This document shows positions 8,079 through 14,823 of a stretch of DNA of 45,190 bases, one piece after another. Position numbers and translations under genes: made by a program. Each line of letters opens with the position of its first letter. Position 1 is the stretch's first letter. This DNA is from a phage. The notes beneath the pieces were generated by a model. The model did not search any database, was not told the DNA's origin, and saw only the letters and a list, made by a program, of their open reading frames with translations. The stretch lies in the sequence record PZ050807.1, one strand, 5' to 3'.

Positions 8079-8114
8079 GTCTCCAAAAAAGGCGGGACTA
8101 GCCCGCCATGTTGA

Positions 8115-8327: not shown

Positions 8328-8606
8328 TTATGCGACCAATTCCGCAACCAATAAATCAGCGTCGTGAATGTTGTCGATTACGCGAACGTCGGCCCCGCGC
8401 TTCGCCATGCGCTCATGTTCACGTACCTGGTGCGGCTTCGGCTTACCACCGGGGCGCTTCACTTCAACGAATACGACTCTGCCGTTGATGATGATAATCA
8501 GGTCGGGGGCGCCGGTACGCCCTTCCCATGCCATTTTACGGCAGAATCCACCTGCCTCTTTTACCTCTTTCATCAGGTGACTTTGCACCTTGCCTTCAGG
8601 AGTCAT
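8328..8606 (-). CDS. VRR-NUC domain nuclease
   Basis: PDLIIIINGRVVFVEVKRPGGKPKPHQ matches the VRR-NUC (PD-(D/E)XK) signature; TAATG overlap with the polymerase stop. Confidence 0.6.
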   Translation of the reverse strand: MTPEGKVQSHLMKEVKEAGGFCRKMAWEGRTGAPDLIIIINGRVVFVEVKRPGGKPKPHQVREHERMAKRGADVRVIDNIHDADLLVAELVA

Positions 8607-10894
8607 TATTTTCTATACCTGTACATGATGTCGCCTTCAGCGGCGAGCGGGAAGCCCTTAGCCCACACCGGCAGATCGCACATTAACCGGCATAACTCTT
8701 CGGTCGTGTAATCGTCCGTGTCCGGCACTTCGGTGATTAATTCATCGTGCACCGACAGGACGATTTCGTATCCCGCCGCTTCGACACCAGGCATAGACCA
8801 TGCGAGAATATCGCGACACAGCGCCTGCACGATGTTCTCCGTCAGTTTGCCGCCGTAGGTGTACTGGAAGCCCCACTGGCGCGTCGTCTGATTCTCGCCC
8901 TGATATTTAATGCGGGTGCTGGTTTTCTTCTTGCCAGTATCCTCATCGATTTCAGTCGTGACAGACAGCGCAATCCCCGGATAGCTCATGATACGACCGG
9001 ACGGCAACTCCACTTTCAACCACCAGCCTGGCGCGTCCGGGTCGTCCCGCTCATCGTCAAACGTAGGGTCGTGCTTCGCCTTCGTGCGCATGATTTTAAG
9101 CGCCTGTTTGCCGTCTGGACGCACATTAGCACCGGCCCAGTATGATTTACCTGGATTGCGGATTGCGCACAGCACAGCATCTTCCAGTTCGGCCCAGAAT
9201 CTAACCGTTTCCGGGTGGGACTCACGCCACATACGCTTGATCGCATCGCAGGTAAGCCACACGTTCTTCGGCAGGATGTAAGTCGGTCGCTCGTCTTTCT
9301 TGCCGGGCTTCGGCGGACGCTTCGCTTCATTAATCCTCGCGTACTCGTACCCGCGTTTCGCTGCGGCCCATATGTGATCCGGGAACGTGCCTTTCATCAC
9401 GTCTGCCATCGCATACAGGTCAAGACCCAGGTTTTTGGCAAACTGCAAGAACGCCGCAACGCCGCCGCCGTAGCCGAGGCCCAATTCACACGCCTTACCG
9501 ATCTGGCGGAGGTCTTTGCGGTTGGCCTTGATATAATCCGGGTCGAGGCCGAACATCTTACCGGCAGTTTCGCAATAAATATCGCGTCCCGCCTTAAAGA
9601 CCATCAACGCAGTTTTCTCGCCCGCAATCCAGGCAAGGCCGCGTCCTTCCACGTTGGAGTAGTCCGCTACAACAAACTTCTTACCCTTAGCCGGGATAAT
9701 GCAGCCGCGTACGGTCGATGCTGTCAGCTTAGATATGTCGTACGCCCAGTGTGCGGTCCCGCGTAATAGGGAATTGATGCCGTTGGTTAGCATGTGCGAC
9801 CGGACCCAAAACGACACGTCGCTTTCACCATCACGGCGCTTGATCTTGCCTTCGTGGTCGTCGCTGTACTCGCCACGCGCCAGGTTTTGAGGCTGAAAAC
9901 CTTTACCGGCCCAGCGCAATGTTCGTTTAGCACCACCATACTGAAGACAACCACGGCGGCGACCGTCAGACGACAGACCGTTAACGAGCGGATTGTATTT
10001 GGTCGACGCCGTTGATGACGCACCGAGGCGCATTTCAATCAGAACTTTGCCCTCGTCCGGGAAGTCCGGGTCTTCCAGCAAATCATTCAGTGTGGATTTC
10101 TGCGCGTTATGGATAGTGAAAGCTGGCGCAATATCTCGTAACAACGGCAGGAAATCATTTCCGGTCAGCTTACCGCCAAACTTCTCCATCGCTTCTTCTT
10201 TCAGTTCTTCCTTGTGCGCTTCAACGGCCTTGATGGCGGCGTAGGCCAGTTCGGTGTCCACGTTGAAGCCGCGGTCATTGATCAACTGGTCAATTGCCAG
10301 TATCTGGTCTTCCTTCGGAGTATTACCCCAATCCGGGATACGCCAGTACACTTCACGCATCGCGATAATATCGAAGCGTGCATACTTGAGGAATTTGGCC
10401 CACTCTTCCGGGTGAGTCTCGCGAGTGTAGCGACGGACTTTGTAAGTCTTCGGCGTTGGCTTACAGAATCGCTTAATCAGCGCCTTGCCCGCTTTATCTT
10501 TCGCATGTTCAGCGTCAACGCCCAATACCTGGCATTGCATGTCAAGGCTGCCGGGGAGGGCGTGACGGAAGGCCATAATCATGGTGTCTTCGATCTGGCA
10601 AACCGGCAGGTCAATACCCCACTTCTCACGGATAACCAGGCGGTCAAACAGGAGGCCGTTAGCCATTACGATTTTTGCTTTCTTGCGGACTACCGCACGC
10701 AATGCCTTACGCAGTTCACTCGGCATCTTCGGCGATTCAGTAGCGTCCCACGTCTGAACACGGCCTTCATCAATGGCGTAGGTGCAGACCATGATTTCCG
10801 TGGTTGGGTGTTCTGCATACGCGTATGCGCCGACCTTCTTCAGATCAACGCCGCTAAACGTTTCGGTATCGAGGAATAGTCGTTCGAAGTTCAT
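8606..10894 (-). CDS. DNA polymerase, family A (T7/Pol I-like, with 3'-5' exonuclease)
   Basis: Exo I motif FLDTETFSG; motif B RQIGKACELGLGYGGG; motif C VLSVHDEL; start set at MNFERLF (ATG 10894). Confidence 0.9.
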   Translation of the reverse strand: MNFERLFLDTETFSGVDLKKVGAYAYAEHPTTEIMVCTYAIDEGRVQTWDATESPKMPSELRKALRAVVRKKAKIVMANGLLFDRLVIREKWGIDLPVCQIEDTMIMAFRHALPGSLDMQCQVLGVDAEHAKDKAGKALIKRFCKPTPKTYKVRRYTRETHPEEWAKFLKYARFDIIAMREVYWRIPDWGNTPKEDQILAIDQLINDRGFNVDTELAYAAIKAVEAHKEELKEEAMEKFGGKLTGNDFLPLLRDIAPAFTIHNAQKSTLNDLLEDPDFPDEGKVLIEMRLGASSTASTKYNPLVNGLSSDGRRRGCLQYGGAKRTLRWAGKGFQPQNLARGEYSDDHEGKIKRRDGESDVSFWVRSHMLTNGINSLLRGTAHWAYDISKLTASTVRGCIIPAKGKKFVVADYSNVEGRGLAWIAGEKTALMVFKAGRDIYCETAGKMFGLDPDYIKANRKDLRQIGKACELGLGYGGGVAAFLQFAKNLGLDLYAMADVMKGTFPDHIWAAAKRGYEYARINEAKRPPKPGKKDERPTYILPKNVWLTCDAIKRMWRESHPETVRFWAELEDAVLCAIRNPGKSYWAGANVRPDGKQALKIMRTKAKHDPTFDDERDDPDAPGWWLKVELPSGRIMSYPGIALSVTTEIDEDTGKKKTSTRIKYQGENQTTRQWGFQYTYGGKLTENIVQALCRDILAWSMPGVEAAGYEIVLSVHDELITEVPDTDDYTTEELCRLMCDLPVWAKGFPLAAEGDIMYRYRK

Positions 10895-11061
10895 TGTTTC
10901 ACCCTTACCACGGCCTCGGCGTCCCCTTTCAGAGAGTAGATGCCGTCGGTTATTGTGATTATGTCGTCGTTCTGTTTCACTTCGGCAACCGTGAAGTATT
11001 CGCCCAGGAATTTGGACCACACGCGCATTCCCGGTTTCACATCTTTAGCTTTAATTCTCAT
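10891..11061 (-). CDS. Small protein, 56 aa, translationally coupled to the DNA polymerase
   Basis: My own translation MRIKAKDVKPGMRVWSKFLGEYFTVAEVKQNDDIITITDGIYSLKGDAEAVVRVKQ; stop overlaps the polymerase ATG (ATGA); RBS AGGA; absent from the ORF track because it is under 60 aa. Confidence 0.35.
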   Translation of the reverse strand: MRIKAKDVKPGMRVWSKFLGEYFTVAEVKQNDDIITITDGIYSLKGDAEAVVRVKQ

Positions 11062-11075
11062 TACATTGTCCTATG

Positions 11076-11099
11076 AAAAAGCCCGCATAAAGCGGGCTT
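11076..11099 (-). terminator. Intrinsic terminator (minus strand)
   Basis: Hairpin AGCCCGC-TTTAT-GCGGGCT followed by TTTTT on the minus strand. Confidence 0.55.
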
Positions 11100-11117
11100 G
11101 AGTAGTGGGCTTTGCCC

Positions 11118-11891
11118 TTAGCGGCGTCGACGTTTACGTGGTGCTTCGTCTTCGTCATCGTCGTCATCTTCATCGCGTGACTTGCGACGTTTACGCGGCT
11201 TATCGTCTTCATCGTCGTCATCTTCATCACGGCGGCGCTTAGACTTGCGCGGTTTTTCATCTTCATCATCGTCGTCACGACGTTTTGACTTTTTGGATTT
11301 ACGCGGTGCTTCGTCTTCGTCATCATCCAGGTCGTCGTCAGAGCAATATGCACCGCCGCCGCCACCGAAGGAATCCCCATCATCACGGAAGCGCATACCC
11401 AGCAGACCACAGCCTAAGCCTTTGCCGTTGGTATTGTTCCAGGCCCAAATATCTAAGGAAACGTTGCAATAGCAACCGGAATAGATTTCCTTCCCTTCGA
11501 TTTCGTCGCCGTCGATGGTCAGACCCTGCTCCGTCTGCTTCTCGCCTTCGGAAGTCTGGATGATCGGCTGTTTGAATGATTTAGCGTTGATATACAGCTT
11601 ACCTTCAAACTCTTCCGTTACTTCTTCACGCTCATCTCCATCTCGAACGGCACATTCTTTCGAATCCTGCGCGTAGTGGCGGTCCATCCACTTATCGGCG
11701 TTCTTCTCAGACTTCAGTTTTTCGGTGAGCACTGCGCGTGCCGCCGCTTCCACTTTGTCCACCTGCGGATCTTCTTTATCAAGAATAATCACCGCACGAT
11801 ATGCCGGTTTTTGTCCATCCTGTTTAGGGGTATCACGCTCCCAAATTTTCAGGAAGCATACACGTACATTTTTCAGGTTGACTTTAGCCAT
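11118..11891 (-). CDS. Putative ssDNA-binding protein (gp2.5-like) with a long repetitive charged C-terminal tail
   Basis: N-terminus MAKVNLKNVRVCF resembles gp2.5-type SSBs; acidic C-terminus; start at ATG 11891 with RBS GAGGAA. Confidence 0.45.
   Translation of the reverse strand: MAKVNLKNVRVCFLKIWERDTPKQDGQKPAYRAVIILDKEDPQVDKVEAAARAVLTEKLKSEKNADKWMDRHYAQDSKECAVRDGDEREEVTEEFEGKLYINAKSFKQPIIQTSEGEKQTEQGLTIDGDEIEGKEIYSGCYCNVSLDIWAWNNTNGKGLGCGLLGMRFRDDGDSFGGGGGAYCSDDDLDDDEDEAPRKSKKSKRRDDDDEDEKPRKSKRRRDEDDDDEDDKPRKRRKSRDEDDDDDEDEAPRKRRRR
11121..11335. repeat. Imperfect tandem repeats of about 50 nt encoding (D/E)-rich/PRKSKRR peptide units
   Basis: Visible in both DNA and protein: DEAPRKSKKSKRRDDDDEDE / KPRKSKRRRDEDDDDED / DKPRKRRKSRDEDDDDDEDE / APRKRRRR. 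Confidence 0.5.
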
Positions 11892-11987
11892 TTTCCAATT
11901 CCTCATTTCACATGTATCGGGGTTATTAGAAGCCACCCCGTCCGGCTTGGTTGCTAATGTACTTGGTTGCGTTTCCGCGGTCAAGTG

Positions 11988-12222
11988 TTATTTATCAAAA
12001 AGTTTTAAAATCAGGTCGAGATATTTGTGCAGCCACACCAGTGGAGGGCGGTGCACGTTGTTTTCCATCCAGTTCAAACAGGCTTCGTTATAGCCGTCGT
12101 CCCATAAGCGGGATGGGTGGCGAATCATCCAGGCCAGCGCCAGCAGACCGCCGCAGGTATGTACTACGAATCCCAGCGCCGCAAGCGGCAGCACCATAAT
12201 CATTGCCAGAATCTTATTCATC
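11988..12222 (-). CDS. Small membrane protein, 78 aa
   Basis: Hydrophobic segment ILAMIMVLPLAALGFVV; start chosen at MNKIL. Confidence 0.4.
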
Positions 12223-13644
12223 GCCCAAATCCTCGTCGCTTGCTTCTTGCCATTCCGGGCGCGGGTCGTCAACTGGTGCCAGGACCGGTTTCGCCGGCGC
12301 ACGCGTGATTTTATCTTGCAGTTTCGCCCACACTTTCGGTTTCTCATCCTTCAGCACCTTCTCGGCATCAGTAGGGCTGATTAATGATTCCTTGTACATC
12401 AGGTCGCGCTTGATCCGGGCCGTTGTGAATACGGCGATAACTTCGCTTTCATCCTTCCACTTACGCGCACCTTCACGACCAGCTACCAGCTTCAGGCCCA
12501 GCGCTTCGCCGTCACCGGCTAACACTGCTTTGAATACGGCAGCCTCGATCGCTTTGATGTGCTGGCGCATGGTTTCCAGGCCGTCGTAAGCCTTCTTCAG
12601 TTCTTCCGTGGTCATAGCACCGGCTGGCGCTTCTTTCTTTCCACGCTTCGCACGTCGGGCAGCTTTCCGAGCTTCGAGGTCCATGTTCTGGTCGTGGTTT
12701 TTGCATTCTTCCTCGGCGGCAATGCTTACATCGTCACCCAGGTCTTCGTCGGTTGCCGTTGGTGGCGTTATTGTGTCGATGGCGGCTTTAGCGCGGGCAC
12801 TACATTGGTCCGCAAATCGACACCACTGACACGCATCGGCGCTCGGACGGAAGTCTGCACGGGTGAGATTCTTCTTACCCTTAGCGAGGGCATCCAGGGC
12901 GGCTACTGCGCGTTTTGCTGCGTACTTGGCGAAGATTTCCAGTGCTTCCACCGAAATATCCCACTCCGACGCCCCGCCGCAATACGGCTGGAATATGACC
13001 AGGCGCACGGTTGTTATGTCGTACATCTTTTGCAGCTTGCGCAGCAGTCCGAGCGCATACAGCATAAGCTGTTTGTTCTCTTTCGCCTCGACCTTATGGC
13101 GTCCGGTCTTCAGGTCGCCCACAATGAGCATGTACGTGCCGTCGGTCTTCTTCATCACCATAACCATATCGGCAGTACCGAAGGTCTTGATCGCTTCGCC
13201 GTCAATCTCGTAGCCTTTGTGCAGGACGCGAGTCAGATCCGCGCGCATCTCAAGCTGGACAAACTCGGCAACTTCAAGCAGCGGTCGCCAGTGGTCGATG
13301 TACGCGTCGCACTGTTTCACCATGTCGTCAGTTACCAGGATGGCGTCCTTAGGTGCTTTCGCTGCCGCTTTAACTGGTCCTTTACCCTGATTTTCGACGT
13401 AGCACCCTTTATATGTCTTCGCCGTGATGTGGTCTTCGCCTGCAATGATGCGGTTTAGTACCACTTCAGATACGGTGTGCATACTCGTACCGTTGATCGC
13501 GGCTTGCCCGGATTCGTTCGGAATACCTTTCTCCACCACCAGGGCGGCGGGACACCCCATCCATTTTTTAGCGCCGGATGGGCCAAGTAATGAGTGTTCT
13601 GTATTACTGCCGGATTGCGTCTTGCGCTTCGCTTTGATAGCCAT
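12214..13644 (-). CDS. PD-(D/E)XK exonuclease, Cas4/RecB-like with Cys cluster (recombination exonuclease)
   Basis: Nuclease core TADMVMV...LIVGDLKTG...QLMLYAL; cysteines in CQWCRFADQC; long charged C-terminal extension. Confidence 0.7.
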   Translation of the reverse strand: MAIKAKRKTQSGSNTEHSLLGPSGAKKWMGCPAALVVEKGIPNESGQAAINGTSMHTVSEVVLNRIIAGEDHITAKTYKGCYVENQGKGPVKAAAKAPKDAILVTDDMVKQCDAYIDHWRPLLEVAEFVQLEMRADLTRVLHKGYEIDGEAIKTFGTADMVMVMKKTDGTYMLIVGDLKTGRHKVEAKENKQLMLYALGLLRKLQKMYDITTVRLVIFQPYCGGASEWDISVEALEIFAKYAAKRAVAALDALAKGKKNLTRADFRPSADACQWCRFADQCSARAKAAIDTITPPTATDEDLGDDVSIAAEEECKNHDQNMDLEARKAARRAKRGKKEAPAGAMTTEELKKAYDGLETMRQHIKAIEAAVFKAVLAGDGEALGLKLVAGREGARKWKDESEVIAVFTTARIKRDLMYKESLISPTDAEKVLKDEKPKVWAKLQDKITRAPAKPVLAPVDDPRPEWQEASDEDLGDE

Positions 13645-13832
13645 TATTCGACCCTCGTAAATTGAGCAATATAATAATCATGCTTAATTCCTGCTTTCGC
13701 CGCGGCGTTATTCATTGTCGCGGCCAGTTCTTTCGCTTGCATCCAGCAACAATTCCAGTTCTGATTCATAATTATTTCCGGCTGTTCGTCGCCGGTGTTA
13801 CGGCAGCGAAATAAAACAAAGAAAATACTCAT
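13644..13832 (-). CDS. Hypothetical small protein, 62 aa
   Basis: TAATG overlaps at both ends imply translational coupling. Confidence 0.35.
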   Translation of the reverse strand: MSIFFVLFRCRNTGDEQPEIIMNQNWNCCWMQAKELAATMNNAAAKAGIKHDYYIAQFTRVE

Positions 13833-14083
13833 TATGGCGTCTCCCAACGGTCAATAGTTTTTGCTTCAGACCCAACTGCAAAGCGAACATATTCGTGATT
13901 CGAGTCCGCCCATAAATAAAAGTCTGGATTAGCGAAGGTCGTGCGTTTAATTTGTGCCGGTGTTTCCCGCTTCTTACTAATTACGGCAACGCGGGATTGA
14001 AAGGGGCCGGTGCGCTCGAATAGCCAGTAGTACGGGCGCTGGTCGCGCGAGTCCACCGCTTCAATTAATGTGAATCGTGCCAT
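13832..14083 (-). CDS. Hypothetical protein, 83 aa
   Basis: ORF in the early operon. Confidence 0.45.
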   Translation of the reverse strand: MARFTLIEAVDSRDQRPYYWLFERTGPFQSRVAVISKKRETPAQIKRTTFANPDFYLWADSNHEYVRFAVGSEAKTIDRWETP

Positions 14084-14096
14084 TGTCTCGTCTCTT

Positions 14097-14124
14097 TAAA
14101 AATAGGCCCGCAGAATAGCGGGCC
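14097..14124 (-). terminator. Intrinsic terminator or attenuator (minus strand) after the first early gene
   Basis: Hairpin GGCCCGC-TATTCT-GCGGGCC followed by TATTTTT on the minus strand. Confidence 0.5.
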
Positions 14125-14131
14125 TGGTATA

Positions 14132-14632
14132 TTAGTCTTCCAGTTCGAAATAGGTTTCGACAATTTCTTTCAGTTCGGTGTGGAAGTCTTCAACGTCGTC
14201 ATCTTCCAGCTTAGCCACAGTCTTGATTTCGAACGATTCCAGCAGGTCGTCAAATTCGTCGTTCGCGTCGTCATCGTCGCCGCCTGCAATGATTGCCGCG
14301 TATTGTGCAATTTCATCGCGCATTTCTTTCAGTGGATCGGCGTCTTTCTTAGCCTTGCCTTTGCCCTTGCCTTTGGCTGGCTTTTCTTCCGGTTCGTCTT
14401 CGTCGTCATCTTCTACGACTTCTTTTTTCGCCTTGCCCTTAGCCGTGGACTTCTTAGCAGGTTTCTTATCTTCCTGCTCGTCATCTTCGTCTTTGGCTTC
14501 TTCTTTCTTAGCCTTAGACGGTTTCTTATCTTCCTGCTTACCAACGGCAGCGCCATGGGTTTCGTAATGTTTAGCGATGGTTTCCAGTGCTACTACGCCG
14601 CGAGTAATCAGATTCAGGATTTGCTCAAACAT
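14132..14632 (-). CDS. Highly charged low-complexity protein (first gene of the leftward early operon)
   Basis: Start at MFEQIL (ATG 14632, RBS GGAGA); long K/E/D-rich region and acidic C-terminus (DDDDANDEFDDLLESF...EDDDVEDF). Confidence 0.5.
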   Translation of the reverse strand: MFEQILNLITRGVVALETIAKHYETHGAAVGKQEDKKPSKAKKEEAKDEDDEQEDKKPAKKSTAKGKAKKEVVEDDDEDEPEEKPAKGKGKGKAKKDADPLKEMRDEIAQYAAIIAGGDDDDANDEFDDLLESFEIKTVAKLEDDDVEDFHTELKEIVETYFELED

Positions 14633-14678: not shown

Positions 14679-14708
14679 AATAATAGATTGGTTGCAGGAT
14701 GGGTGTCA
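14679..14708 (-). promoter_or_regulatory. Leftward early promoter: -35 TTGACA, 18-nt spacer containing GCAACCAAT, -10 TATTAT
   Basis: Minus strand: TTGACA(14708..14703)-18 nt-TATTAT(14684..14679). Confidence 0.55.
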
Positions 14709-14715
14709 ACAACTA

Positions 14716-14753
14716 ATTTAAAAAAAAATCCCCGAAGCAAAACGCAACGGGGA
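14716..14753 (-). terminator. Terminator-like hairpin plus T-run (minus strand) upstream of the leftward promoter
   Basis: Minus strand: CCCCGTTGCGTTTTGCTTCGGGG followed by TTTTTTTTT. Confidence 0.4.
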
Positions 14754-14823
14754 TAACCATAAGAGACAATGAGACTGGTTTTATTATTACACGCGCGCGC
14801 ACCCGTTTCAATATACAAAACAG

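What the first reader, a model, noticed from the sequence alone, without database searches (positions are those of the whole stretch)
10891..11061. Unannotated 56-aa ORF translationally coupled to the DNA polymerase
The ORF is below the 60-aa cutoff of the six-frame track. It has a plausible RBS (AGGA) and its stop overlaps the polymerase start (ATGA), which suggests stoichiometric co-expression; it could be a small accessory or processivity subunit.
Basis: seen in the sequence. Interest (0 to 1): 0.35.

Follow-up and report, generated by a model that had tools for sequence, protein, structure and literature searches.

The report
Small conserved gene before phage polymerase
The 56-codon reading frame is a real, conserved phage gene for a tiny beta-barrel protein made together with the DNA polymerase; close relatives that lose it escape a bacterial defence (Borvo) that senses that polymerase, but what the protein does biochemically is still unknown.

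Summary
On the minus strand the ORF runs 11061 to 10891. AGGA lies 7 nt before its ATG, and its TGA overlaps the polymerase ATG (ATGA). The window is a Dhillonvirus.

- **Real and already catalogued.** It matches PHROG 10102 and sits before the polymerase in 155 GenBank Dhillonvirus genomes, mostly annotated as "hypothetical protein". dN/dS is about 0.06 to 0.2.
- **Conserved position.** Uncultured relatives at 33-50% identity keep the order SSB, terminator, small ORF, PolA. The next gene's ribosome-binding site lies inside the small ORF's last codons.
- **Not an obligate subunit.** Jersey and K1H (polymerase 64% identical) lack it. Natural deletion and frameshift variants exist.
- **Published genetics.** Supplementary tables of Stokar-Avihail et al. 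show that SECphi4/6/18 escape Borvo, whose trigger is this polymerase. They do so by a frameshift in this "56aa protein", by strengthening the hairpin before it, or by polymerase exonuclease-site mutations.

So a functional link to the polymerase is supported. Whether it acts in cis (coupled translation) or in trans (protein partner) is unresolved. A processivity role has no support.

The parts
10891..11061 (-). 56-aa ORF (MRIKAKDVKPGMRVWSKFLGEYFTVAEVKQNDDIITITDGIYSLKGDAEAVVRVKQ). It belongs to PHROG 10102 and is the orthologue of SO-1 gp40 and of the SECphi4/6/18 'protein of unknown function (56aa)'.
   Evidence: conservation, dN/dS; AlphaFold pLDDT 92.9 and 94.9; literature orthologue.
11069..11072 (-). 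Shine-Dalgarno-like AGGA, 7 nt upstream of the ORF's ATG.
   Evidence: The same UAGGA is conserved in relatives with a 9-nt spacer.
11076..11099 (-). Intrinsic-terminator-like hairpin between the SSB gene and the small ORF: AAGCCCGC, loop TTTAT, GCGGGCTT, then a T-run.
   Evidence: It is conserved with loop variation in all relatives, including distant ones and phages that lack the ORF. The simple scan did not list it. SECphi4 Borvo-escape mutations map to the equivalent hairpin.
10900..10907 (-). Shine-Dalgarno of the polymerase gene (UAAGGGUG), embedded in codons V52-R53-V54 of the small ORF.
   Evidence: The R53 codon is AGG in the window and in all 17 distinct relatives, while other Arg codons vary. 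Distant relatives carry GAGGT, GGAGGT or AAGGTG at the same place.
10891..10894 (-). ATGA junction: polymerase start ATG (10894-10892) overlapping the small-ORF stop TGA (10893-10891).
   Evidence: The same 4-nt overlap is found in every intact relative examined, and 8-14-nt overlaps in distant relatives.
8606..10894 (-). Family A DNA polymerase with an N-terminal 3'-5' exonuclease domain (762 aa). It is the downstream cistron.
   Evidence: It is 95% identical to the main-clade Dhillonvirus polymerase. The orthologue is the reported Borvo trigger.
11118..11984 (-). Gp2.5-like / Enc34-type (DUF2815) ssDNA-binding protein gene. It is the upstream neighbour, and its transcript must read through the hairpin to reach the small ORF. 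The start codon is not fixed: 11984 is the ORF-list TTG.
   Evidence: A promoter-like site lies at 11984-11956. The orthologue EE09 CDS61 was detected by proteomics.
10923..10970 (-). Segment (codons 32-47) removed in-frame in the 99.5%-identical phage Ioannina. The ATGA junction is kept.
   Evidence: A second in-frame variant (49 aa, lacking IITITDG) comes from another sample and also keeps the 4-nt overlap.

Best explanation
The ORF is a genuine early gene of the Dhillonvirus replication operon.

Expression (anatomy shown, function inferred): transcripts from the highly expressed SSB gene read through a terminator-like hairpin. Ribosomes then load at AGGA-N7-ATG and translate 56 codons. The last of these codons contain the polymerase's Shine-Dalgarno. 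Translation stops on the polymerase's start codon, so the two proteins are made as one coupled unit.

Product (predicted): a stable seven-stranded beta-barrel whose closest structural match is domain I of EF-P/eIF5A.

Function (my committed reading, inferred): the protein is a non-essential accessory factor that acts in trans on the polymerase or replisome, probably around the proofreading (exonuclease) function. It would raise the amount or change the state of active polymerase. This would explain why losing it gives the same phenotype as polymerase exonuclease-cleft mutations, namely escape from the polymerase-sensing Borvo defence.

It is not a clamp-type or thioredoxin-type processivity factor and not an obligate subunit.

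My probabilities:
- Gene is real: about 0.98.
- Functionally tied to the polymerase, in cis or in trans: about 0.8.
- Trans-acting polymerase/replisome accessory: about 0.45.
For: Real gene:
- PHROG 10102, E 3.5e-27.
- 155 Dhillonvirus records.
- dS equals that of the polymerase (about 1.2), with omega 0.2 against 0.03 for the polymerase and 0.1 for the SSB. Within the main clade the median omega is 0.06.
- Two AlphaFold runs agree, pLDDT 92.9 and 94.9, and all five models of the second run are at least 91.8.

Replication context is kept at 33-50% identity:
- SSB, hairpin, small ORF, PolA in L036, L037, L039, L041 and L045.

Coupling anatomy:
- ATGA overlap, or 8-14-nt overlaps in distant relatives.
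- The next gene's SD lies inside the last codons. AGG at R53 is invariant.

Genetic link to the polymerase (Stokar-Avihail et al., bioRxiv 10.1101/2022.08.27.505566, Tables S2 and S3):
- Borvo escapers of SECphi18 (3 of 4) and SECphi6 (4 of 5) list only a +1G frameshift, E21fs, in this 56-aa gene.
- SECphi4 escapers 2 and 3 carry mutations in the hairpin upstream of it.
- The other polymerase-linked escapers carry exonuclease-cleft missense changes.
- The authors list the 56aa gene as sensitising to Borvo, and show that the polymerase alone triggers Borvo toxicity.

Why a purely cis effect looks small:
- The frameshifted frame stops only 21 nt before the polymerase ATG.
- The polymerase has its own strong SD.
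- No conserved occluding RNA structure is detectable: z = 0.44, covariation term +0.59.
Against: - Polymerase expressed alone is enough to trigger Borvo, and only that pair is reported as toxic for Borvo. The 56-aa protein is therefore not required when the polymerase is over-produced.
- Jersey and K1H (polymerase 64% identical) have SSB, hairpin, RBS and polymerase with no such ORF. No phage record outside Dhillonvirus matches the protein, although 495 records hold a polymerase 60-80% identical.
- The protein evolves about seven times faster than the polymerase.
- In L038 and L043 one or two other small ORFs separate it from the polymerase. In L042 it sits before a helicase.
- No physical interaction could be tested.
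- The SECphi4 hairpin mutations, and the fact that both natural deletions are in-frame, fit a dosage (cis) model at least as well.
- Limited proteomics of phage EE09 saw the SSB but neither this protein nor the polymerase.
Confidence: 0.45

Rival explanations
1. Cis-only link. What matters for the polymerase is that the ORF is translated. It is the upstream cistron that delivers ribosomes to the polymerase start on an attenuated read-through transcript, and so sets polymerase dosage. Borvo escapers (frameshift, stronger upstream hairpin) simply lower polymerase below the sensing threshold. The folded protein has some other, unrelated role.
For: - Stop/start overlap and embedded SD are conserved even in distant lineages.
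- The SECphi4 escape mutations turn the upstream hairpin into a perfect 16-bp stem. Predicted dG goes from -25.7 to -33.4 kcal/mol. The new stem pairs the U-tract and 3 of the 5 SD bases of the small ORF, which should reduce everything downstream.
- Both natural deletions are in-frame and keep the ATGA junction.
- Polymerase alone triggers Borvo.
Against: - The frameshifted frame terminates only 21 nt upstream of the polymerase ATG, within re-initiation range. The polymerase has a strong SD of its own and no detectable occluding structure, so the expected polar effect is modest.
- The amino-acid sequence and fold are under clear purifying selection, so the protein must do something.
Confidence: 0.33
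2. A host-directed or counter-defence small protein. It resides in the early replication operon only for timing and has no direct relation to the polymerase. Its loss alters infection physiology so that Borvo is not triggered.
For: - It is non-essential yet conserved, fast-evolving and patchily distributed. That profile is typical of accessory host-interaction genes.
- Dozens of uncharacterised 54-90-aa phage proteins from unrelated phages share the fold, TM 0.8-0.9.
- In L042 it is not next to a polymerase.
Against: - The position between SSB and PolA is tightly conserved in most lineages.
- It shares the Borvo-escape phenotype specifically with polymerase exonuclease-cleft mutations.
- It has no match to known defence or anti-defence families in the libraries searched. 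PADLOC was not searched.
Confidence: 0.15
3. A stand-alone mimic of EF-P domain I that acts on host translation, for example by occupying the EF-P site on the ribosome or by titrating the EF-P-modifying enzyme EpmA.
Against: - No sequence or profile similarity to EF-P: hhalign probability below 1%, and no Pfam EFP_N hit.
- The beta3/beta4 connection is a two-residue turn with no conserved Lys or Arg. EF-P function needs a seven-residue loop modified at its tip (PMC6544042 abstract).
- Domains II and III are absent.
- This reading does not explain the Borvo link.
Confidence: 0.03
4. A chance ORF or a non-coding spacer that happens to be open.
For: Short ORFs are abundant in this GC-rich genome. 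No peptide was detected in the one shallow proteomic study.
Against: - dN/dS is 0.06-0.2 with dS equal to that of the flanking genes.
- Homologues exist at 30-50% identity with the same length and position.
- The predicted fold is confident.
- A frameshift has a phenotype.
Confidence: 0.01

Closest known systems
SECphi4 / SECphi6 / SECphi18 'protein of unknown function (56aa)' (Stokar-Avihail et al., bioRxiv 10.1101/2022.08.27.505566, Tables S2 and S3); SECphi4 QJI52527.1 'gp40'
   Same: Orthologue. It has the same length, the same locus (SSB, hairpin, ORF, ATGA, polymerase) and 64-66% identity. Frameshift E21fs in it, or hairpin mutations upstream of it, let these Dhillonviruses escape Borvo. 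Those mutants form plaques, so the gene is dispensable.
   Different: The window's copy is a divergent allele from the LM40P1/Ioannina sub-lineage. It lacks the G5 run (CTG GGC GAA instead of CTG GGG GAA) where the recurrent +1G frameshift arises. No phenotype has been measured for this phage. The paper's main text does not discuss the 56-aa gene.
PHROG 10102 (unknown function); Sodalis phage SO-1 gp40; HK578_039; pVOG VOG7811
   Same: Full-length profile match, 1-56 of 56, E 3.5e-27. Same annotation slot in GenBank relatives.
   Different: None in kind. The family has no assigned function and is absent from Pfam and NCBIfam.
Domain I (KOW-like / translation-protein SH3-like barrel) of EF-P, eIF5A and EfpL
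   Different: No detectable sequence homology. No seven-residue beta3/beta4 loop with a modifiable Lys or Arg. No OB domains II and III. It is a stand-alone 56-aa protein in a replication operon.
Polymerase processivity/accessory factors of phages, e.g. host thioredoxin bound to T7 gp5 (from established knowledge, not tested here)
   Different: Unrelated fold. It is not required, since mutants are viable and related polymerases lack it. No insertion in the polymerase tracks the ORF's presence. No binding data exist.
Classical translationally coupled cistron pairs with overlapping stop/start (e.g. trpE-trpD, trpB-trpA; from established knowledge)
   Same: ATGA overlap, with the downstream SD inside the upstream coding sequence.
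   Different: Dependence of polymerase translation on upstream translation has not been measured. No occluding RNA structure was found. Such overlaps make up about a fifth of same-strand junctions in these genomes.

Membership tests
PHROG 10102 / Dhillonvirus gp40-like 56-aa protein | Full-length sequence match to the family profile | tested here: met
   hmmscan E 3.5e-27, residues 1-56 on profile 1-56 of 56. 62-68% identity to main-clade members.
PHROG 10102 / Dhillonvirus gp40-like 56-aa protein | Position between the Gp2.5-like SSB (plus hairpin) and the family A polymerase, overlapping the polymerase start | tested here: met
   The position also holds in remote homologues.
EF-P / eIF5A domain I | KOW-like beta-barrel fold of domain I | tested here: met
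EF-P / eIF5A domain I | Sequence or profile homology to EF-P N-terminal domains | tested here: not met
   hhalign of the family alignment against E. coli EF-P and against four PDB EF-P domain I sequences gives probabilities of 0.2% and 0.6%. No Pfam hit for any of the 26 members.
EF-P / eIF5A domain I | Seven-residue beta3/beta4 loop carrying the modified Lys or Arg at its tip (PMC6544042 abstract) | tested here: not met
   The model has strands 27-31 and 34-38 joined by a two-residue turn. The turn residues (DD, GE, GN and others) are not conserved, and there is no invariant basic residue.
EF-P / eIF5A domain I | Additional OB-fold domain(s) that anchor the factor on the ribosome | tested here: not met
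   The protein is 56 aa, a single domain. All homologues are 40-69 aa.
Polymerase processivity subunit | Clamp, thioredoxin or other known processivity-factor fold | tested here: not met
   Neither PDB search listed a clamp-like or thioredoxin-like structure among the matches shown.
Polymerase processivity subunit | Obligate co-occurrence with, and requirement by, the polymerase | tested here: not met
   Absent from Jersey and K1H, whose polymerase is 64% identical. No match outside Dhillonvirus among 50,697 phage records. Frameshift and deletion variants are viable.
Polymerase processivity subunit | Physical binding to the polymerase and increased processivity | not testable with these tools
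   No complex prediction or biochemistry was available. Indels in the polymerase do not track ORF presence.
Translationally coupled cistron pair | Stop codon of the upstream ORF at or overlapping the downstream start, with the downstream SD inside the upstream ORF | tested here: met
   ATGA at 10894-10891 and UAAGGGUG at 10907-10900. AGG at R53 is invariant. The logic is the same in distant relatives.
Translationally coupled cistron pair | Downstream translation depends on upstream translation | not testable with these tools
   No conserved occluding structure was found. The Borvo-escape frameshift and hairpin mutations are consistent with dependence but do not prove it.
Borvo-sensitivity determinant (Stokar-Avihail et al.) | Orthology to the SECphi4/6/18 56-aa gene | tested here: met
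   Same locus and length, 64-66% identity.
Borvo-sensitivity determinant (Stokar-Avihail et al.) | Loss of the gene lets this phage escape Borvo | not tested
   Experimental. It is known only for SECphi4/6/18.

The most novel reading that the evidence does not exclude
The 56-aa protein defines a new class of polymerase accessory factor. It would be a stand-alone EF-P-domain-I-like barrel that binds the proofreading domain of a phage family A polymerase and modulates it. The polymerase together with this protein, rather than the polymerase alone at physiological levels, would then be what the Borvo defence system senses.
Probability: 0.3. Interest if true: 0.65.

Novelty: already known. Interest (0 to 1): 0.4.

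Why it matters
The ORF itself is ordinary and already catalogued. It is nevertheless one of the few small phage 'dark matter' genes with a published loss-of-function phenotype that nobody has explained. Losing it, or damping its expression, lets Dhillonviruses escape Borvo, a defence triggered by the phage DNA polymerase.

This analysis adds three things. First, a confident fold assignment (EF-P domain I-like, but without EF-P's functional loop). Second, the operon logic: SSB, attenuator hairpin, small ORF carrying the polymerase's ribosome-binding site, polymerase. Third, a map of the escape mutations onto that logic.

Together these turn the question 'how does Borvo see the polymerase?' into a simple cis-versus-trans experiment. 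If the protein acts in trans, it would be a new kind of small polymerase partner. The same fold is shared by dozens of uncharacterised phage proteins.

Tried and rejected
1. Sequence-level function assignment. Pfam, NCBIfam and PDB sequence searches gave nothing for the protein or its 26-member alignment. The second PHROG hit (8121, E 0.003) is also of unknown function.
2. Large-protein hits. The hits of 548-2622 aa in the exhaustive HMM search are repeat-protein artefacts such as PPR, ankyrin and Fn3, and were rejected.
4. EF-P homology by profile-profile comparison was negative.
5. A conserved RNA structure occluding the polymerase start was not found.
6. A polymerase insertion that co-occurs with the ORF, comparable to T7's thioredoxin-binding loop, was sought. 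The indels do not track presence or absence. The only difference that follows absence is a 7-aa gap in the single Jersey/K1H clade, which has no statistical power.
7. Searching IMG/VR with the family alignment found only Dhillonvirus contigs, plus one doubtful 293-aa protein (L023) sharing 'PGMRVWSK'.
8. tblastn with three remote homologues found no isolated phages other than Dhillonvirus.
9. Peptide evidence. The one Dhillonvirus proteome paper (PMC10673088) detected only four phage proteins in infected cells, among them the SSB but not this ORF or the polymerase. It is uninformative.
10. The published Cell version of the escaper paper is not in the library. The preprint's main text does not mention the 56-aa result.
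11. A complex prediction of the small protein with the polymerase was not possible with the tools and caps.
Full report
**1. Observation**

On the minus strand the ORF starts at ATG 11061-11059 and ends at TGA 10893-10891. AGGA lies at 11072-11069, followed by a 7-nt spacer. The polymerase ATG is 10894-10892, so the junction reads ATGA. The downstream gene (8606-10894, 762 aa) is a family A DNA polymerase. The upstream genes are a Gp2.5-like/Enc34-type SSB (11118-11984) and a DUF2800 PD-(D/E)XK nuclease. Between the SSB stop (TAA 11120-11118) and the ORF lies a GC-rich hairpin with a U-run at 11099-11076. A 56-codon ORF is not remarkable in itself, since 58 ORFs of 30 aa or more overlap 9000-14500. 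Reality therefore has to be judged by comparison with relatives.

**2. Identity of the window and of the ORF**

The region is 99.5% identical to Dhillonvirus LM40P1 and phage Ioannina, and 80-87% identical to more than 120 other Dhillonvirus genomes.
- The protein matches PHROG 10102 (unknown function) end to end, E 3.5e-27.
- It matches nothing in Pfam, NCBIfam or PDB sequences.
- tblastn finds it in 155 of 50,697 phage records, all in the Dhillonvirus set. In nearly all annotated rows shown, the polymerase is the feature under or beside the match.
- It is annotated as a hypothetical protein in most of them, for example SO-1 gp40, HK578_039, Oekolampad gp42 and rolling gp15 (pVOG VOG7811).

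So it is unannotated only in the first-stage track.

**3. Coding test**

Seventeen distinct orthologue sequences were compared.
- The median dN/dS is 0.06 at dS about 0.39 within the main clade.
- Between the window and the main clade, dS (1.1-1.9, partly saturated) equals that of the polymerase (1.1-1.3).
- On that branch omega is about 0.2, against 0.03 for the polymerase and 0.1 for the SSB.

The frame is therefore under purifying selection as a protein, but it evolves roughly seven times faster than the polymerase. Identities to the window are 95% for the polymerase against 66% for the small protein. In more distant lineages they are 81-83% against 49-50%, and 62-66% against 33-46%.

**4. 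Wider family and synteny**

An exhaustive profile search found further 45-69-aa homologues at 36-48% identity. The large hits were repeat artefacts. A word-indexed search gave 29 members. The contigs that carry them have these layouts:
- Nuclease, SSB, a GC-rich hairpin, the small ORF, then PolA, with 8-14-nt overlaps (L036, L037, L039, L041, L045).
- One or two extra small ORFs inserted before the polymerase (L038, L043).
- In the most distant case, a position before a 65-aa ORF and a DEAD-box helicase (L042).

Where the small ORF abuts the polymerase, the polymerase SD (GAGGT, GGAGGT or AAGGTG) lies in its last five or six codons. These encode the conserved C-terminal V-x-V strand. In the window and all 17 distinct relatives, R53 uses AGG, the core of that SD, while the other Arg codons vary.

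Conversely, Jersey and K1H (Guernseyvirinae) have a polymerase 64% identical and the same SSB-hairpin arrangement, but no such ORF. In K1H the polymerase RBS follows the hairpin directly. The remote homologues have no close counterparts among isolated phages.

**5. Structure**

AlphaFold2 gives an all-beta protein with strands at 2-4, 13-16, 21-24, 27-31, 34-38, 43-47 and 51-55. The pLDDT is 92.9 from a 5-sequence alignment and 94.9 from 26 sequences.
- Foldseek against the PDB gives only weak SH3, Tudor and eIF5A hits.
- There is no sequence or profile similarity to EF-P.
- The beta3/beta4 connection is a two-residue, non-conserved turn. EF-P function needs a seven-residue loop with a modified Lys or Arg (PMC6544042 abstract).
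- EF-P's other domains are absent.

It has the fold of EF-P domain I but is not a member of that family. In BFVD, dozens of uncharacterised 54-90-aa proteins from unrelated phages share the fold at TM 0.8-0.9.

**6. Expression logic**

A promoter-like site sits just upstream of the SSB gene at 11984-11956. The escaper paper also refers to an SSB promoter. The SSB orthologue was one of only four phage proteins seen in infected-cell proteomics of Dhillonvirus EE09 (CDS61). The small ORF (CDS62) and the polymerase (CDS63) were not seen (PMC10673088). This fits a hairpin that attenuates transcription between an abundant SSB and a low-abundance pair made of the small protein and the polymerase; that is an inference. 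No conserved RNA structure around the polymerase start was detected: z = 0.44, covariation term +0.59. ATGA overlaps make up 11 of about 58 same-strand junctions in a curated relative, so the overlap alone is ordinary gene packing.

**7. Published genetics**

The supplementary tables of Stokar-Avihail et al. (bioRxiv 10.1101/2022.08.27.505566) list escapers from the Borvo defence system.
- SECphi18: 3 of 4 escapers, and SECphi6: 4 of 5, list only a '+C' (that is, +1G on the coding strand), E21fs, in a 'protein of unknown function (56aa)'. Its printed sequence, MRIKASEVKVGMQVWSKLLGEYF..., is the orthologue of this ORF.
- SECphi4 escaper 4 carries 8322 C>T together with polymerase T13A.
- The other polymerase-linked escapers have missense changes in the polymerase exonuclease cleft: T13A, E91K, D176E and R171L.
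- One SECphi6 escaper lists only a synonymous change in an 80-aa gene.

Table S3 lists the 56aa gene as sensitising SECphi4 to Borvo and records that it was cloned. The main text reports only the polymerase as toxic with Borvo and never discusses the 56-aa gene.

I mapped the SECphi4 changes onto MT331608.1. They convert the hairpin with internal loops into a perfect 16-bp stem. Predicted dG goes from -25.7 to -33.4 kcal/mol. The new stem pairs the U-tract and three of the five SD bases of the small ORF.

**8. Natural variants**

- Phage Zumzum carries exactly the +1G E21fs allele. Its frame ends 21 nt before the polymerase ATG.
- Ioannina has an in-frame 48-nt deletion (window 10923-10970, codons 32-47).
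- A contig from another sample has an in-frame 21-nt deletion (49 aa) that keeps the 4-nt overlap.

The gene is therefore dispensable for plaque formation, yet it is intact in 21 of the 23 relative loci examined directly. About half of the main-clade phages have the slippery G5 run. The window has CTG GGC GAA instead.

**9. Interpretation**

Shown:
- A real, conserved gene for a small protein.
- A fixed position at the head of the polymerase cistron, with the anatomy of a coupled pair.
- Dispensability.
- A genetic link between its expression and the polymerase-triggered Borvo response.

Inferred:
- How that link works.

A trans model (the protein acts on the polymerase or replisome) is favoured by four points. 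The protein is under selection. Its loss gives the same phenotype as exonuclease-cleft mutations. The premature stop lies only 21 nt from the polymerase start. The polymerase has its own SD and no detectable occluding structure.

A cis model (translation of the ORF and read-through set polymerase dosage) is favoured by three points. The SECphi4 escapers strengthen the upstream hairpin. Both natural deletions are in-frame. The polymerase alone suffices as trigger when over-expressed.

I put the trans model at about 0.45, cis-only at about 0.33, an unrelated host-directed role at about 0.15, an EF-P mimic at about 0.03 and a chance ORF at about 0.01. A processivity-factor role is not supported: the fold is wrong, the protein is not obligate, and no polymerase insertion tracks its presence.

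**10. Novelty and score**

The feature is already known, both as an annotated hypothetical gene and as a Borvo-sensitivity determinant. I found no description, in the papers searched, of the fold assignment, of the operon and SD anatomy across lineages, or of the reading of the escape mutations as hairpin strengthening. Interest is moderate (0.4). It is ordinary as a gene call, but it offers a clean and cheap experiment on an unexplained published phenotype.

**Caveats**

- The structures are predictions.
- dS between clades is near saturation.
- The escaper data come from my reading of a preprint's supplementary tables. The lack of toxicity of the 56-aa protein with Borvo is inferred from its absence among the toxic cases named in the text.
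- The Ioannina assembly also has a 1-nt deletion in the SSB tail, so its quality is uncertain.

Noticed in passing
window 11118-11984 (-), especially 11160-11213: The SSB has a long C-terminal tail of alternating acidic and basic blocks (…DDDDEDEKPRKSKRRRDEDDDDEDD…). Near-identical LM40P1 genomes differ from the window by in-frame 42-nt and 54-nt deletions in this repeat. Ioannina has a 1-nt deletion at 11357.
   Followed up: partly
window 11076-11099 (-): The terminator-like hairpin after the SSB gene is conserved, with free loop variation, across Dhillonvirus, distant metagenomic relatives and even Jersey and K1H. The simple terminator scan did not list it. In SECphi4 it is the target of Borvo-escape mutations that make it a perfect 16-bp stem.
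   Followed up: yes
L047 (Salmonella phage Jersey) 2281-2491: Jersey has an unannotated 211-nt insert between the SSB hairpin and the polymerase. It contains a 17-codon ORF (MKIRLSKMKALDLRKKK) whose stop overlaps the polymerase ATG. K1H has no insert. The junction between SSB and polymerase seems to be a variable slot for small ORFs; see also the extra ORFs in L038 and L043.
   Followed up: partly
L023 2422-3303 (IMG/VR contig of 116 kb): A 293-aa protein carries a segment 'VPGMRVWSKSTGKGPYIV…TITDG' that resembles the family's N-terminal half. It is flanked by CxxC motifs and a C-terminal hydrophobic stretch. It could be a fused homologous domain or a chance match.
   Followed up: no
main-clade orthologues, codons 19-21 (e.g. 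L006 1473-1619; SECphi18/SECphi6): About half of the main-clade phages have a G5 run (CTG GGG GAA). This is where the recurrent +1G frameshift arises in laboratory Borvo escapers, and GenBank phage Zumzum carries it too. The window has CTG GGC GAA, so it lacks this mutational hot spot.
   Followed up: partly
literature: T5 Borvo escapers: Two T5 Borvo escapers carry disruptions of an unrelated 60-aa hypothetical protein (gene 86) in addition to polymerase missense mutations. A second small protein may therefore be implicated in Borvo sensing.
   Followed up: no
L007 (Sodalis phage SO-1) polymerase gene: The SO-1 orthologous polymerase is annotated as interrupted by a group I intron carrying an HNH endonuclease. 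Several metagenomic relatives have HNH genes flanking the SSB and polymerase.
   Followed up: no
window 14680-14811 (-) and 14104-14125, 8091-8107 (-): Strong sigma-70-like promoter matches (11 of 12 and 10 of 12) lie at the head of the leftward early operon. Further terminator-like hairpins lie within it. This suggests several attenuation points along the replication operon.
   Followed up: no
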